NCBI RefSeq assembly: GCF_057098645.1
Contig: NZ_CM169472.1
DNA: 64,000 nucleotides
Strand: one strand, 5' to 3'
This document shows, one piece after another, positions 15,401 to 18,400 of this stretch. Numbering within the stretch: position 1 is the first letter of the stretch; each line of letters starts with the position of its first letter. The position numbers were made by a program.

Positions 15401-18400
15401 AGCAGACCAAAGCCATTATCCGAATTGAAGGTTTTATCATTACCAATGGCAATGGTTGCGCCATATGCTACATATTGAAATAAGTTTCCAGTAACAGCAG
15501 AAACTTCAGGGTATAATCCAACATTAGCACCTAAAATATCCATACTTGGTGTCATGGATAGCATCCCTTTTACAGTATAACCGTAGCGATTCTCTATTTG
15601 ATCATCCCATGCATGATATTTTTCTGCCCCAATAATCTCATGAGCTTTATTTTGTACTTTCTGACCGCCTGCGTCGGGGCCAACAACACCTATGTCAGTA
15701 CCTAATCGATAGCGAATCCAGTCATTCGCAAGGGAGTTCCATTCAATACCAGTGTGAGTGTATGCACTAAAAGCTCTGTCTCCAGTTACAGCTGTGTTGT
15801 GTCTTTTATTACTGCCTGATGGAGAGTAAATATCTTGCGCAATATGGAGAGATAATTGGCTCGAGTCTGAGATATCGTGGCTATATCCCAGAAATAAGCC
15901 TTGTGAGTAATCATCTCTGTTTTCATGTTTATTGCCATAAATATCATTAAGTATTGGTTGAAACTTCCCTGCATCATCATTTGCTAATGATAATGCAAGG
16001 CTGTTCGCGATAGCTGAACACGTGGTAAATGACAGAGCAATAAAGACGCCAGCGATGACACTTTTTTTCATATGTTATTGTCTTCCTTTTTTTTGAATGG
16101 TGCGCGTATTTTACATACATGAGTTTGTAATACAAGGTGCGTAATCAATATGATGTTTTATAATTGCGTGAGACAATTGATTTATTCGTTTTTTATTGCG
16201 GTTTTATTATCTTTTAATGTAATGGTGTTTTTATTAAGTGTGTTTGCGTGGTGTTTTATGTTTTTTATAATTTTTTATTTTATTAAATTTAAATGCATTA
16301 GTAATGGCTATTCTATATAGCAATATAAGAACTGTTACAAAAAAAGGGGGGGCAATTACAGGTAGTTATGGATGATGAGTGAAACAGATATTGGAGAACC
16401 GGGGAATGAATGATGTCTGAGTCTTATATATCAGAACTCCTTCGCTGTCGCTGGGGGCTCCTGTGCTTATGTCGTTTCCCCGATTCGGTTTTGAACGATT
16501 ACCGAATGTTGAAGAATTATGCCAAAATATAGAAAGGATTTACTGCATGAATACCCAATATTTACAGTATGTTCGTGAGCAACTTATGGCAGCTACTGCT
16601 GACTTGAACGGAGCAACGAAAGGCCAGCTCGAAGCCTGGCAGGAGCATGCACAATTTGATACTGGTACATACAAACGAAAGAAGCCGCGCATTCTGGATG
16701 TGGTAACTGGCAAGATGATTACGCTGGATAATACGCCGACTTCCGGTAAGCAGTCGTACGCAAAAGGTTCATCCATTGCTTTGGTCAGCCCGGTTGAATT
16801 CTCAACCTCTTCATGGCGCCGCGCGGTTTTGTCTCTCGATGAACATCAGAAAGCATGGTTGCTTTGGTGTTACAGCGAAAGCGTTCGATGGGGGCATCAG
16901 GTCACCATAACGCAATGGGCATGGAGCGAGTTTAAAGATTTGTTAAGTAACAGAAAAATTGCAGGTAAGACACTGGATCGCCTGAAGACGTTAATCTGGC
17001 TGGCTGCACAGGATGTGAAGAGCGAACTTGCAGGGCGTGAGGCCTATGAATACCAGACACTGGCATCATTGGTGGGAGTGACAACAAAAAACTGGTCCGA
17101 GACATTTACTGAACGCTGGGTTGCAATGAAGCACATTTTTCTACAGCTTGATAGTGATGCTTTATTGCTTGTGACGAGAACACGTTCAAAACAAAAGGCA
17201 GCATTTTTACAGCAAAATATTGCAAAACTGGATTAAAAGCCATATACTTCATGCAAATTTGGTATGTTGTAAAAAATGTATAAACCCGCTGCCGAGTGGG
17301 TTTTTTTTATGCCCTGAGTTGTACTTGTACGGTAAACATGCTGGCTGCTATGTAATAGAGTTTTTTTAGCCTGTAACCTCTTGACGGCATTGAATTGCTT
17401 TTGTTATGAGTTGTAAGCCAATGTTATCATCTTGTATTGGGGTGGTTATGAAGGATGGTGCGCTGCTCAGGAGTTCTTCACTTTTTATTGCCTACATGGG
17501 ATGCCTTGGATGGGGGAGTGCTTATTTCTATGGATGGGGTACTTCTTTTTACTACGGCTTCCCATGGTGGATTGTAGGTGCAGGTGTTGATGATGTTGCC
17601 AGAAGTTTATTTTTTGCAGTTATCGTCATTGCTATATTTCTTATCGGTTGGGGTATTGGTGTTGTATTCTTTTTCGCAGTGAAAAGAAAACATTCTATGC
17701 AAGAGCTAAATGTATTTCGCCTTTATTTTGCTGTGGAATTATTGTTTGTGCCGGCAATTATTGAGTTTTCTATATTGAGACAGAAGATTCAGGTACCTCT
17801 TTTGCTACTGTCAGCAGCGATTGCGCTGGCGGTTACAATTTCGATAAGATCTTATGGGCGATTTTTATCGGTATCATGCTTCTATGATAAGCCATTTATA
17901 AAAAAACATTTTTTTGAGATTGTGATGATTGCTTTTGTGGCATATTTTTGGCTTTTTTCATTTCTGACAGGATATTACAAACCACAGTTTAAGAAAGAAT
18001 ATGAAATGATTAATTATAATGATGGTTGGTATTATGTTCTTGCTCGTTATGATAATTGTCTGGTTTTGTCTACTTCTTTCAATGCAGGTAGTAAAAGGTT
18101 TGTCATTTATCAATCAGCACAAGATAAGAATCTTCAGGTTGATATTGTAAGGACCAGAATTTAATTGGCTGCATAAATAATATTTTAAGTTGCAAGTTGG
18201 CTATTCGTAGGAATAGAACCTTAGGCATGCTGAATGCGTTTTCTGAACATTGTTTTATAAACTGTGTCTGCTTGCTGTTGTGATCCTGCTTTTAGTGATG
18301 GTGATGATGGATTTCACCAGCAGGATAATGTTGGTACTGACTGATGGCGCTCTGGTCTGCGGCATTGTGGTATTGCTGTGGCCGATGATGAAAGAACAGA

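What the first reader, a model, noticed from the sequence alone, without database searches (positions are those of the whole stretch)
17406..18164. Unassigned polytopic membrane protein as the first gene after the late terminator, the slot used by stx in Stx phages
**Where it sits.** Immediately downstream of the Q-position gene there is a near-consensus promoter (TTGCAA-17 nt-TATACT, 17220-17248) and a strong terminator (17283-17308). The first ORF after them is an AT-rich gene starting at ATG 17448 with SD ggggtgg, giving a 238-aa product. The product has at least five hydrophobic segments plus a C-terminal soluble part (...EYEMINYNDGWYYVLARYDNCLVLSTSFNAGSKRFVIYQSAQDKNLQVDIVRTRI).

**Why the position is informative.** It is followed by the nanS-p esterase gene. 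In Stx-converting phages the stxAB genes lie between Q/tR' and nanS-p. A different cargo gene therefore occupies the high-expression moron slot here.

**Possible independent expression.** A candidate promoter of its own (TTGACG at 17381-17386, with TATGAG about 18 nt later) might also allow expression in the lysogen.

The function is unknown to me.
Basis: partly seen in the sequence, partly recalled or inferred. Interest (0 to 1): 0.55.

Follow-up and report, generated by a model that had tools for sequence, protein, structure and literature searches.

The report
Phage 434 TfpB-family membrane cargo gene
The flagged ORF is a real, conserved inner-membrane cargo gene of coliphage 434 sitting where Stx phages carry their toxin genes; it is already annotated and belongs to a named protein family (TfpB, which includes Salmonella STM1630) whose function nobody knows.

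Summary
The window carries a 434-type prophage, and bases 16347-19304 are identical to phage 434. The ORF is 434 gene CPT_434_68, also ECs0816 in O157 Sakai Sp3. Its best start is ATG 17448, giving 238 aa. It lies after a Q82-type antiterminator, a late promoter and a terminator, and upstream of nanS-p. In phage 933W that interval holds stx2AB.

The gene is no longer unassigned at family level. It belongs to Pfam PF27470 "TfpB", named after the Moraxella pilin-inversion ORF (hhalign 99.6%, E 2.4e-24). Salmonella STM1630 is a member.

The model shows five TM helices, N-in, with a small periplasmic beta-domain. No structural relative was found, and no invariant catalytic-type residue.

It behaves as cargo:
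- AT-rich (36% GC) and under purifying selection (pN/pS 0.07-0.18).
- Absent from the viable derivative 434B.
- Found in 677 of 5,426 complete E. coli genomes.
- Carries its own conserved promoter-like boxes.
- Recurs beside lpxR and toxin loci.

Biochemical function remains unknown. An envelope-acting lysogen fitness factor is the most likely reading. Interest is modest.

The parts
15112..16071 (-). lpxR (outer-membrane lipid A 3'-O-deacylase), AT-rich cargo gene upstream of Q
   Evidence: Pfam LpxR PF09982, E 6.8e-40. 434 annotation. ECs0814 in Sakai Sp3. 39.4% GC.
16547..17236 (+). Q82-type late antiterminator (start as annotated in phage 434; the longest ORF begins at 16463)
   Evidence: PF06323 Phage_antiter_Q, E 1.7e-91. 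434 annotation CPT_434_67. The 3' end matches the phage 82 Q record.
17220..17248 (+). Late promoter (pR'-type), TTGCAA-17-TATACT, overlapping the end of Q
   Evidence: Consensus scan. Both hexamer regions are conserved in P0046-type prophages. The function is inferred.
17260..17268 (+). Extended -10-like element TGGTATGTT in the initial transcribed region; candidate sigma70-dependent pause/Q-loading element
   Evidence: Read from the sequence. The TG-n-TAT core is conserved in L049/L051. The role is inferred from the known lambda/82 pR' mechanism and was not tested.
17282..17308 (+). Intrinsic terminator (tR'-type) ending the short late leader RNA
   Evidence: Scan: 9-bp stem, loop of 4, T-run. 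Annotated as a terminator in the 434 record. Conserved with a G.U to G-C change in L049. A weak STnc240-like Rfam match spans 17243-17312.
17378..17410 (+).
   Evidence: Mean pairwise identity is 0.85 at both boxes against 0.31-0.55 around them, in five enteric lineages. Three of these do not lie directly after Q. The function was not tested.
17448..18164 (+). TfpB-family (PF27470) inner-membrane protein gene, 238 aa: five TM helices (about 10-36, 47-78, 89-111, 116-136, 155-181) and a C-terminal beta-domain (184-235). Same gene as CPT_434_68, ECs0816 and E2348C_RS03680.
18250..18408 (+). DUF3927 small membrane protein ('TciB-like')
   Evidence: PF13064, E 3.4e-14. phrog_1470. 434 annotation.
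18419..18623 (+). STnc100-like sRNA candidate ending at the terminator 18594-18612; overlaps the 62-aa ORF 18465-18653 annotated in 434 as a putative membrane protein
   Evidence: Rfam RF02076: 41.4 bits (gathering 47), E 1.3e-6, full-length model. Terminator scan. 434 annotation.
18707..20556 (+). nanS-p (DUF1737-SASA-DUF6645 esterase), frameshifted here by a 1-bp deletion near 19305
   Evidence: Pfam on the two ORF halves. Alignment to 434. Intact as 1851 bp in 434.
20729..24713 (.). IS3-family and IS21-family insertion sequences between nanS-p and the lysis genes (not part of phage 434)
   Evidence: Pfam: rve, HTH_Tnp_1, HTH_21, IstB_IS21, Mu-transpos_C_2. The match to 434 ends at 20720.

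Best explanation
**What it is.** The ORF (ATG 17448 to stop 18164, 238 aa) is a functional cargo gene, a 'moron', of a 434-type lambdoid prophage. It encodes a TfpB-family (Pfam PF27470) inner-membrane protein.

**Shown here.**
- It is identical to phage 434 gene CPT_434_68.
- It is homologous over its full length to Moraxella TfpB and Salmonella STM1630.
- It is under purifying selection.
- It is predicted to have five TM helices. Loop charges place the N-terminus in the cytoplasm and the roughly 55-residue C-terminal beta-domain in the periplasm.
- The conserved residues are aromatic or small (AY.YGWG...YYGFPWW, G175, YY195-196) and cluster at the periplasmic ends of TM1/TM2 and at the TM5/beta-domain junction.

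**Inferred.**
- The family has no invariant acidic, basic, His, Cys or Ser residue. The protein therefore more likely acts by binding or organising something at the periplasmic face of the inner membrane than as an enzyme.
- It is probably expressed in two ways. On induction, Q-modified RNA polymerase starting at the late promoter reads through the terminator at 17282-17308 and transcribes it as the first late gene. In the lysogen, a weak promoter that travels with the gene (conserved -35-like and -10-like boxes at 17378-17410) could give low or conditional expression. H-NS silencing is likely, as shown for STM1630.
- Its role is most likely a host-envelope fitness function that benefits the lysogen, not a step of phage multiplication. 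The repeated linkage to lpxR (and pmrD) points tentatively to outer-membrane or lipid A remodelling. The biochemical activity is unknown.
For: **Identity.** The match to phage 434 is 100%.

**Family.**
- A precomputed PF27470 'TfpB' hit on all homologs.
- hhalign of the enteric profile against M. bovis TfpB: 99.6%, E 2.4e-24, 228 columns.
- The Moraxella ORF lies between inverted pilin segments beside piv and carries PF27470 and the name 'protein tfpB'.
- STM1630 is a member by primer sequence and locus.

**Real gene.** pN/pS is 0.07-0.18.

**Structure and topology.** AF2 model with pLDDT 78.8 and pTM 0.73. Loops 2 and 4 carry 3.0 K+R on average, loops 1 and 3 carry 0-0.5.

**Cargo status.**
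- 36% GC.
- The gene lies within the 434B non-homology segment, and 434B is viable.
- Solitary chromosomal copies occur in Salmonella, Citrobacter, Pasteurellaceae and Neisseriaceae.
- Present in 677 of 5,426 complete E. coli genomes.

**Slot.** 933W layout. Diverged homologs after Q or after the tRNAs and before nanS-p. Promoter and terminator conserved.

**Own promoter.** Conservation peaks of 0.85. STM1630 has its own promoter, is H-NS bound, and is expressed in SPI-2-inducing medium and in macrophages.

**Host-side phenotypes of STM1630.** Mutants are attenuated in calves and chickens, and intramacrophage replication is altered.

**lpxR linkage.** It appears in three different gene orders.
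Against: - No experiment addresses the E. coli or 434 protein.
- No structural or sequence relative of known function was found.
- The candidate private -10 is poor: TATGAG lacks the conserved final T. Promoter-like hits in the region are no more frequent than chance.
- The gene was not among the Ler-regulated genes in EPEC, although its neighbour lpxR was.
- lpxR adjacency was seen in only 3 of about 8 enteric contexts examined. It could be hitch-hiking inside one mobile cassette.
- The STM1630 phenotypes are mild. One of them, hypermotility, was not among the phenotypes confirmed with clean deletions.
- Q-dependent read-through is inferred from position only.
Confidence: 0.55

Rival explanations
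1. It serves a phage-centred membrane function. As the first late gene, it would act during lytic growth or in the lysogen against other phages. Possible roles are superinfection exclusion, abortive-infection-type membrane effector, or modulation of lysis timing next to the holin/endolysin cassette.
For: - It is the first ORF of the late transcript, in the same operon as the lysis genes.
- It is a polytopic membrane protein.
- Other small membrane proteins are clustered with it (DUF3927 'TciB-like').
- Prophage morons often encode exclusion functions (general knowledge).
Against: - No match to any PADLOC defence model.
- The gene lies in the segment that viable 434B lacks.
- The family is conserved as solitary chromosomal genes far from any phage in Pasteurellaceae, Neisseriaceae, the Moraxella pilin locus and Salmonella, where it is SPI-2 co-regulated.
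- DUF3927 is not a constant partner.
Confidence: 0.2
2. It is a type IV pilus accessory protein, as the family name suggests. It would act like TfpY/FimB-type proteins that help pilin assembly, here modulating an E. coli type IV pilus.
For: - The founding member lies inside the Moraxella pilin inversion segment, directly after a pilin gene.
- The length (238 aa) and the general layout (N-terminal TM helices, periplasmic C-terminal beta-domain) resemble TfpY-like proteins of 235-245 aa (PMC11841053).
- Many hosts of the family are piliated (Moraxella, Neisseria, Pasteurellaceae).
Against: - TfpY-like proteins are described with three TM helices and two beta-sheets. This protein has five helices and one five-strand domain.
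- No pilin gene lies near the gene in the window, in enteric loci, or in the Pasteurellaceae and Neisseriaceae loci inspected.
- An exhaustive profile search found only 72 clusters. That is not what a family 'widely distributed in T4P-expressing Pseudomonadota' would give.
- No weak hit to any pilin-accessory model in NCBIfam or Pfam.
Confidence: 0.08
3. It is a decaying or functionless passenger ORF, an AT-rich remnant that merely hitch-hikes with lpxR and the late region.
For: - Function is unknown.
- Many truncated database entries exist.
- In this window the prophage is degraded: nanS-p is frameshifted and IS elements are inserted.
- STM1630 expression was lost in the ST313 lineage.
Against: - pN/pS is 0.07-0.18 among Escherichia copies.
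- The full-length reading frame is kept from E. coli to Moraxella, with strongly conserved motifs.
- The sequence is identical between a 1950s phage isolate and modern genomes.
Confidence: 0.04

Closest known systems
Phage 434 gene CPT_434_68 (UMO75332.1, 'putative membrane protein'); also ECs0816 of O157:H7 Sakai prophage Sp3 and E2348C_RS03680 of EPEC E2348/69 PP2
   Same: DNA is 100% identical to 434 across Q, promoter, terminator, the ORF and DUF3927. The position after lpxR and Q is the same.
   Different: - The 434 record starts the ORF 27 nt upstream (247 aa), whereas homolog lengths favour 238 aa.
- In this window nanS-p is frameshifted and IS elements follow.
- Sakai Sp3 has different content between this gene and the holin: no DUF3927 or nanS-p gene is annotated there.
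Salmonella Typhimurium STM1630 (SL1344_1560)
   Same: It belongs to the same Pfam family, has the same 238-aa length and is 46% identical. It is also AT-rich horizontally acquired DNA next to a virulence gene on the opposite strand.
   Different: - It is chromosomal, lies between the effector genes sseJ and steB, and is not in a prophage late operon.
- It has its own mapped promoter, is H-NS bound and is induced in SPI-2 conditions.
- Its upstream region lacks the TTGAC box seen in E. coli lineages.
- Its function is also unknown.
Moraxella bovis/lacunata TfpB (founding member of PF27470)
   Same: Full-length homology (hhalign 99.6%, E 2.4e-24), with the same conserved N-terminal aromatic motif and C-terminal YY motif.
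   Different: - It is about 25-27% identical.
- It lies inside the invertible pilin segment next to piv, which is a pilin context absent here.
- No functional study of Moraxella TfpB turned up in the searches made here.
- The M. lacunata copy is truncated to 195 aa.
TfpY/TfpX/TfpZ/FimB-like type IV pilin accessory proteins (PMC11841053)
   Same: Similar size. N-terminal membrane helices plus a periplasmic C-terminal beta-rich part. In Moraxella the gene sits in the equivalent place, downstream of a pilin gene.
   Different: - Three TM helices and two beta-sheets, against five helices and one beta-domain.
- No sequence link was detected.
- No pilin neighbour in enterics.
- Homology was not testable here for lack of TfpY sequences or an AFDB search.
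stxAB and other cargo of the Q-to-lysis interval of lambdoid phages (933W stx2AB; DNA methylase plus tRNAs in Sakai Sp9)
   Same: It has the same position between Q/pR'/tR' and nanS-p/holin. It is expected to be transcribed by Q-modified polymerase on induction, and it is dispensable for the phage.
   Different: It encodes an integral membrane protein that stays in the bacterium, not a secreted toxin. It carries what looks like its own promoter and also occurs outside prophages.

Membership tests
Pfam PF27470 (TfpB) | Significant full-length sequence similarity to the founding Moraxella TfpB | tested here: met
   - hhalign of A1 against M. bovis L026:491-1276: 99.6%, E 2.4e-24, 228 columns.
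- A Moraxella-type protein, P0134 (63% identical to M. bovis TfpB), was hit at E 1.0e-18 in a library of 1.84 billion proteins.
- tblastn hits in four Moraxella species.
Pfam PF27470 (TfpB) | Hit to the Pfam model itself | tested here: met
   Precomputed PF27470.1 is reported for the 100%-identical protein P0001 and for all homologs. It appears unmarked (E<=1e-5) in contig listings. The Moraxella protein carries the same accession and the JGI name 'protein tfpB'. The local Pfam copy lacks this model.
Pfam PF27470 (TfpB) | Location in a type IV pilin locus, the context of the founding member | tested here: not met
   No pilin gene lies in the window neighbourhood or in the enteric, Pasteurellaceae or Neisseriaceae loci. 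Only Moraxella shows this context. The feature is contextual and is not required for homology.
TfpY/FimB-like pilin accessory proteins | Three N-terminal TM helices followed by a mixed three-strand sheet and a three-strand antiparallel sheet | tested here: not met
   The AF2 model has five TM helices and one five-strand domain. The TfpY description comes from PMC11841053.
TfpY/FimB-like pilin accessory proteins | Sequence or fold homology to TfpY, TfpZ or FimB | not testable with these tools
   No TfpY or FimB sequence was available. The afdb50 library was unavailable. Indirect evidence is negative: only 72 clusters in the exhaustive profile search, and no weak NCBIfam or Pfam hits.
TfpY/FimB-like pilin accessory proteins | [quoted passage not shown] | tested here: not met
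   The window gene follows Q, a promoter and a terminator. Only the Moraxella relatives follow a pilin gene.
Lambdoid late-region moron in the stx slot | Located between Q/pR'/tR' and nanS-p plus the lysis cassette | tested here: met
   Window layout. The 933W reference layout. Diverged homologs occupy the same interval.
Lambdoid late-region moron in the stx slot | Dispensable for phage growth | tested here: met
   The gene lies within the roughly 4.6-kb stretch that the 434 GenBank record marks as non-homologous in 434B. 434B forms clear plaques and was propagated for sequencing (PMC9119081). This is literature and annotation evidence, not an experiment done here.
Lambdoid late-region moron in the stx slot | Q-dependent transcription on induction | not testable with these tools
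   It is inferred from position and from the conserved promoter and terminator. RNA-seq with and without induction and with and without Q is needed.
Known anti-phage defence systems (PADLOC) | Match to a defence-protein model | tested here: not met
   No PADLOC hit at E<=0.1 for this ORF or its two small neighbours.

The most novel reading that the evidence does not exclude
TfpB-family proteins may be a mobile inner-membrane module that cooperates with outer-membrane or lipid A remodelling (LpxR, PmrD), or with toxin release. That would explain why the gene repeatedly lies beside lpxR in three different gene orders. It would also explain its position beside LT, CDT, RTX-export and sseJ loci, and in the exact slot that Stx phages use for stx. 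On this reading the 434/EHEC/EPEC copy would alter the envelope of the lysogen or of the induced cell, for example by activating latent LpxR or promoting vesiculation.
Probability: 0.1. Interest if true: 0.7.

Novelty: already known. Interest (0 to 1): 0.3.

Why it matters
The gene sits in about one in eight complete E. coli genomes, including O157:H7, O111:H8 and EPEC E2348/69. It occupies one of the most strongly induced positions of a lambdoid prophage.

Its Salmonella homolog STM1630 has colonisation and intramacrophage phenotypes, yet the family has no known activity.

Several objects turn out to be one family: the phage 434 gene, ECs0816, STM1630, the ORF beside LT on ETEC plasmids, and Moraxella tfpB. 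That gives a tractable model (phage 434 in K-12) for a protein of unknown function tied to virulence loci.

The finding itself is an annotated gene in a named family, so it is useful context rather than a discovery.

Tried and rejected
**Family libraries.**
- The local Pfam, NCBIfam and PADLOC libraries gave no hit for the ORF, even at E<=10.
- PHROGs gave only families of unknown function.

**Structure.**
- The first AF2 model, from 26 close sequences, was too poor to use (pLDDT 59.6).
- A 48-sequence alignment gave a usable model.
- Foldseek against the PDB had a best E of 0.49 and TM-scores below 0.2.
- BFVD gave nothing at E<=1e-3.
- The weak MscS and SH3-like matches were rejected as non-significant.
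- The afdb50 library was unavailable.

**Searches that needed a second attempt or gave nothing.**
- The first genome scan with alignment A2 failed for lack of a conserved stretch. A3 worked.
- 'TciA/TciB of 434' was a false lead: the TciB-like label belongs to the DUF3927 neighbour, not to this ORF.
- 'TfpB' in most of the literature means unrelated things: Acinetobacter PilB-like motor, Tfpb pili, chemicals.
- My guess that Sakai Sp9 carried the gene was wrong. It is in Sp3.
- No paper mentions ECs0816.
- The Ler regulon paper lists lpxR and Q but not this gene.
- The LT/prophage literature search gave nothing specific on the flanking ORF.

**Rejected readings.**
- The CII-binding consensus annotated in 434 over 17401-17414 was considered. 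Only its first half is conserved in other lineages, so it was not adopted.
- The STM1630 hypermotility phenotype was not used as evidence, because it was not among the phenotypes confirmed with clean deletions.
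Full report
**1. The observation**

The ORF is present as described. Frame +3 is open from 17406 to 18164, with in-frame ATGs at 17406, 17421 and 17448.

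The region 17200-18450 is 100% identical to Escherichia phage 434 (OL657226). There the ORF is CPT_434_68, 'putative membrane protein', started at the equivalent of 17421. A base-by-base comparison shows no difference from 434 between 16347 and 19304.

ATG 17448 is the best start. Homologs are almost all 237-238 aa and begin at the equivalent Met. A purine-rich SD sits at the same distance in other lineages.

The upstream gene is a Q82-type antiterminator (PF06323, E 1.7e-91). The scan finds TTGCAA-17-TATACT at 17220-17248 and a hairpin plus T-run at 17282-17308.

The ORF has 36.1% GC and a GC3 of 30%, against 50.5% for the window.

Two details need correcting:
- nanS-p is not the next gene. 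A DUF3927 gene (18250-18408) and a further 200 nt with their own terminator come first.
- nanS-p is a frameshifted pseudogene in this window, through a 1-bp deletion near 19305.

**2. Setting**

Window 538-20720 is 99.8% identical to phage 434 from int to nanS-p. So this is a 434-type prophage. After 20720, IS3-family and IS21-family elements interrupt it before the lysis genes.

The Q-ORF-DUF3927 block is present at 80% coverage or more in 677 of 5,426 complete E. coli genomes. These include O157:H7, O111:H8 and EPEC E2348/69. It is ECs0816 in Sakai prophage Sp3 and E2348C_RS03680 in PP2, in both cases after lpxR and Q.

Among 50,697 phage records only 434 and 2B8 carry it.

**3. The 'stx slot'**

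In 933W the order is Q, pR'/qut, terminators, three tRNAs, stx2AB, L0105 (YjhS/nanS-p), S-R-Rz. The positional analogy is therefore correct.

It also holds beyond the identical 434 block:
- A 56%-identical homolog (P0046) lies directly after another PF06323 Q.
- A 68%-identical homolog (P0019) lies in Stx-phage-type late regions. The order there is Q, methylase, tRNA-Met and tRNA-Lys, the gene, lpxR(-), pmrD(-), nanS-p, holin.

In the P0046-type loci the late promoter hexamers and the terminator hairpin are conserved, and a G.U pair is replaced by G-C. A TG-n-TAT element in the initial transcribed region (17260-17268) is also conserved. By analogy with lambda and 82 pR' it may be the sigma70-dependent pause site where Q loads. 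That is inference.

**4. What the protein is**

The local Pfam, NCBIfam and PADLOC libraries have no model for it. PHROGs has phrog_1521, of unknown function.

All homologs in the large protein database carry a newer Pfam accession, PF27470, named 'TfpB'.

I tested that label directly:
- A scan of one genome per species found relatives in Moraxella bovis, M. lacunata, M. equi and M. oblonga.
- In M. bovis and M. lacunata the ORF lies between inverted pilin gene segments next to the piv recombinase. That is the classical tfpB position.
- The enteric profile aligns to M. bovis TfpB over 228 columns with 99.6% probability and E 2.4e-24.
- The Moraxella protein itself carries PF27470 and the JGI name 'protein tfpB'.

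The family is small. An exhaustive profile search found 72 representative clusters among 1.84 billion proteins. They come from:
- Enterobacteriaceae, which also hold a very divergent Klebsiella/Enterobacter branch;
- Pasteurellaceae;
- Neisseriaceae;
- Moraxella.

Salmonella STM1630 is a member. It is 717 bp and divergent from sseJ. Its published deletion primer encodes NSSMLLAYLGGLGWG, matching P0074, which is 46% identical to the window protein.

**5. Structure and topology**

Hydropathy gives strong TM segments at about 53-77, 88-110, 114-133 and 155-175, plus an aromatic/Gly-rich N-terminal segment.

With a 48-sequence alignment AF2 gives pLDDT 78.8 and pTM 0.73. The model has helices at 10-36, 47-78, 89-111, 116-136 and 155-181. 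A five-strand beta-domain follows at 184-235.

Across the family, loops 2 and 4 carry 3.0 Lys+Arg on average. Loops 1 and 3 carry 0-0.5. By the positive-inside rule the N-terminus is cytoplasmic and the beta-domain periplasmic.

The conserved positions are aromatic or small. They are A25, Y26, Y28, W30, G37, W40, W41, A51, S53, F172, G175, Y195, Y196 and F218 in the core family. Only Y26 and G175 are invariant across all branches. The absence of an invariant catalytic-type residue argues for a binding or scaffolding role rather than an enzyme. That is inference.

No structural relative was found in the libraries available:
- Foldseek against the PDB had a best E of 0.49.
- BFVD gave nothing at E<=1e-3.

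The AFDB library was not available.

**6. Cargo or phage function**

Several lines point to cargo:
- The gene lies inside the segment that the 434 record marks as non-homologous in 434B. 434B is a viable clear-plaque derivative whose Q, late promoter and lysis region were replaced by DLP12 DNA.
- It is AT-rich, like its neighbour lpxR.
- The gene is under purifying selection, with pN/pS of 0.07-0.18 against 2B8, E. albertii and Escherichia sp. copies.
- It exists as a solitary chromosomal gene in Salmonella, Citrobacter, Pasteurellaceae and Neisseriaceae.
- It appears as a prophage remnant beside eltAB on ETEC plasmids, and between iroBC and a bor/iss gene in other E. coli.

**7. Own promoter**

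I aligned the upstream spacer from five enteric lineages. Three of them do not lie directly after Q: the ETEC plasmid, the iro-adjacent remnant and the stx-slot type.

Two sharp conservation peaks appear:
- CTCTTGACG at 17378-17386, with mean pairwise identity 0.85;
- TTTGTTATG at 17399-17408, also 0.85.

The background is 0.31-0.55. Their spacing fits a -35 and a -10.

The -10 is weak, so an activator or relief of silencing may be needed.

STM1630, which has a different upstream sequence, has its own promoter. It is H-NS bound and is expressed in SPI-2-inducing medium and inside macrophages.

**8. What is known about function**

Nothing is known for the E. coli or 434 protein. No paper mentions ECs0816.

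In the EPEC Ler regulon study the neighbouring lpxR-like gene was activated 21- to 35-fold and Q 2-fold. This gene was not listed.

For STM1630 the literature reports (citing Morgan 2004 and others):
- unknown function;
- absence from S. Typhi;
- attenuation of mutants in calves and chickens;
- no growth defect in LB;
- increased intramacrophage fold-replication of a 4/74 deletion;
- promoter inactivation in all ST313 strains.

It belongs to a SPI-2 co-regulated cluster. A hypermotile phenotype from a cassette-insertion screen was not among the phenotypes confirmed with clean deletions.

No functional study of Moraxella TfpB turned up in the searches made here.

**9. Comparison with TfpY-like pilin accessory proteins**

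These are of similar size and have a periplasmic C-terminal part. They are described with three TM helices and two beta-sheets. This protein has five helices and one beta-domain.

No pilin gene is near any non-Moraxella member I inspected. No sequence link was detectable. I could not run a direct profile or fold comparison. The pilin-accessory reading is therefore unlikely for the enteric members but not excluded.

**10. A recurring neighbourhood**

The gene is linked to lpxR in three different orders:
- lpxR(-) Q gene(+) in 434, Sp3 and PP2;
- gene(+) lpxR(-) pmrD(-) in the stx-slot type;
- lpxR(-) gene(+) on the Citrobacter rodentium chromosome.

Salmonella has sseJ at the place of lpxR, at the syntenic chromosomal site.

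Elsewhere the gene abuts cdtA and cdtC with a cdtB-sized ORF between them in Glaesserella parasuis. It abuts HlyB/HlyD-type RTX exporters in a Mesocricetibacter MAG.

This may be hitch-hiking in mobile AT-rich islands. It may instead hint at an envelope or toxin-related role. I treat it as a lead only.

**11. Verdict**

The object is an already annotated phage 434 gene in a named family of unknown function, so novelty is low.

The most likely account is a TfpB-family inner-membrane cargo protein. It would be transcribed by Q-dependent read-through on induction, and perhaps from its own weak, probably silenced promoter in the lysogen. It would act at the periplasmic face of the inner membrane for the benefit of the host rather than the phage. 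The biochemical mechanism is not established.

Noticed in passing
window 18419-18623 (+): A full-length but sub-threshold Rfam match to sRNA STnc100 (41.4 bits against a gathering score of 47, E 1.3e-6). It ends at the strong terminator 18594-18612, between the DUF3927 gene and nanS-p. It overlaps the 62-aa ORF that the 434 record annotates as a putative membrane protein, so that ORF may really be an sRNA gene.
   Followed up: partly
window 17243-17312 (+): A very weak Rfam match to Salmonella sRNA STnc240 (28 bits, E 0.46). It spans exactly the short leader from the late promoter -10 to the terminator. The short late RNA may be a relative of a described enterobacterial sRNA.
   Followed up: no
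window 19304-19305, within nanS-p (18707-20556): A 1-bp deletion (G) relative to phage 434 splits the nanS-p esterase gene into two overlapping ORFs, making it a pseudogene in this prophage copy.
   Followed up: yes
window 20729-24713: An IS3-family element (orfA 21434-21760; orfB fragments) and an IS21-family element (istA 23067-24713, istB 22295-23293, minus strand) are inserted between nanS-p and the lysis genes. The late operon of this prophage is physically interrupted.
   Followed up: partly
window 15112-16071 (-); L009 3863-4823; L043-L045 about 5970-6919: lpxR (lipid A 3'-O-deacylase) is linked to the TfpB-family gene in three different gene orders in E. coli prophages and C. rodentium. 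In some prophages pmrD lies next to it.
   Followed up: partly
L003-L007 (ETEC plasmids), L017 (Glaesserella parasuis), L015 (Mesocricetibacter MAG), L008 (Salmonella): TfpB-family genes lie beside toxin or effector loci in unrelated lineages:
- eltAB (LT-I), divergent, on ETEC plasmids.
- cdtA and cdtC flanking a cdtB-sized ORF.
- HlyB/HlyD-type RTX exporters.
- sseJ.
   Followed up: partly
L038-L042: A 57%-identical homolog sits between the salmochelin genes iroB/iroC and a bor/iss-like gene in several E. coli chromosomes. It looks like a remnant of a lambdoid late region next to a virulence locus.
   Followed up: no
L019/L021 and L020/L030 (Aggregatibacter actinomycetemcomitans): Two paralogous TfpB-family genes per genome, at unrelated housekeeping loci.
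   Followed up: no
L028, L029 5974-6561 (M. lacunata) compared with L026 491-1276 (M. bovis): The M. lacunata tfpB reading frame is truncated to 195 aa, compared with 261 aa in M. bovis.
   Followed up: no
L010 (contig labelled MAG: Veillonella sp.): A 3-kb contig assigned to a Veillonella MAG encodes a protein 100% identical to the window protein. This is almost certainly mis-binned E. coli prophage DNA.
   Followed up: no
window 17401-17414: The 434 GenBank record marks TTGTTATGAGTTGT as a CII-binding consensus. It overlaps the conserved TTTGTTATG box, but only the first half-site is conserved in other lineages.
   Followed up: partly
L036 (Sakai Sp9) 11860-16688: In Sakai prophage Sp9 the Q-to-nanS-p interval holds a DNA methylase and the tRNAs ileZ3 and argO3 instead. 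This shows how variable the cargo in this slot is.
   Followed up: no
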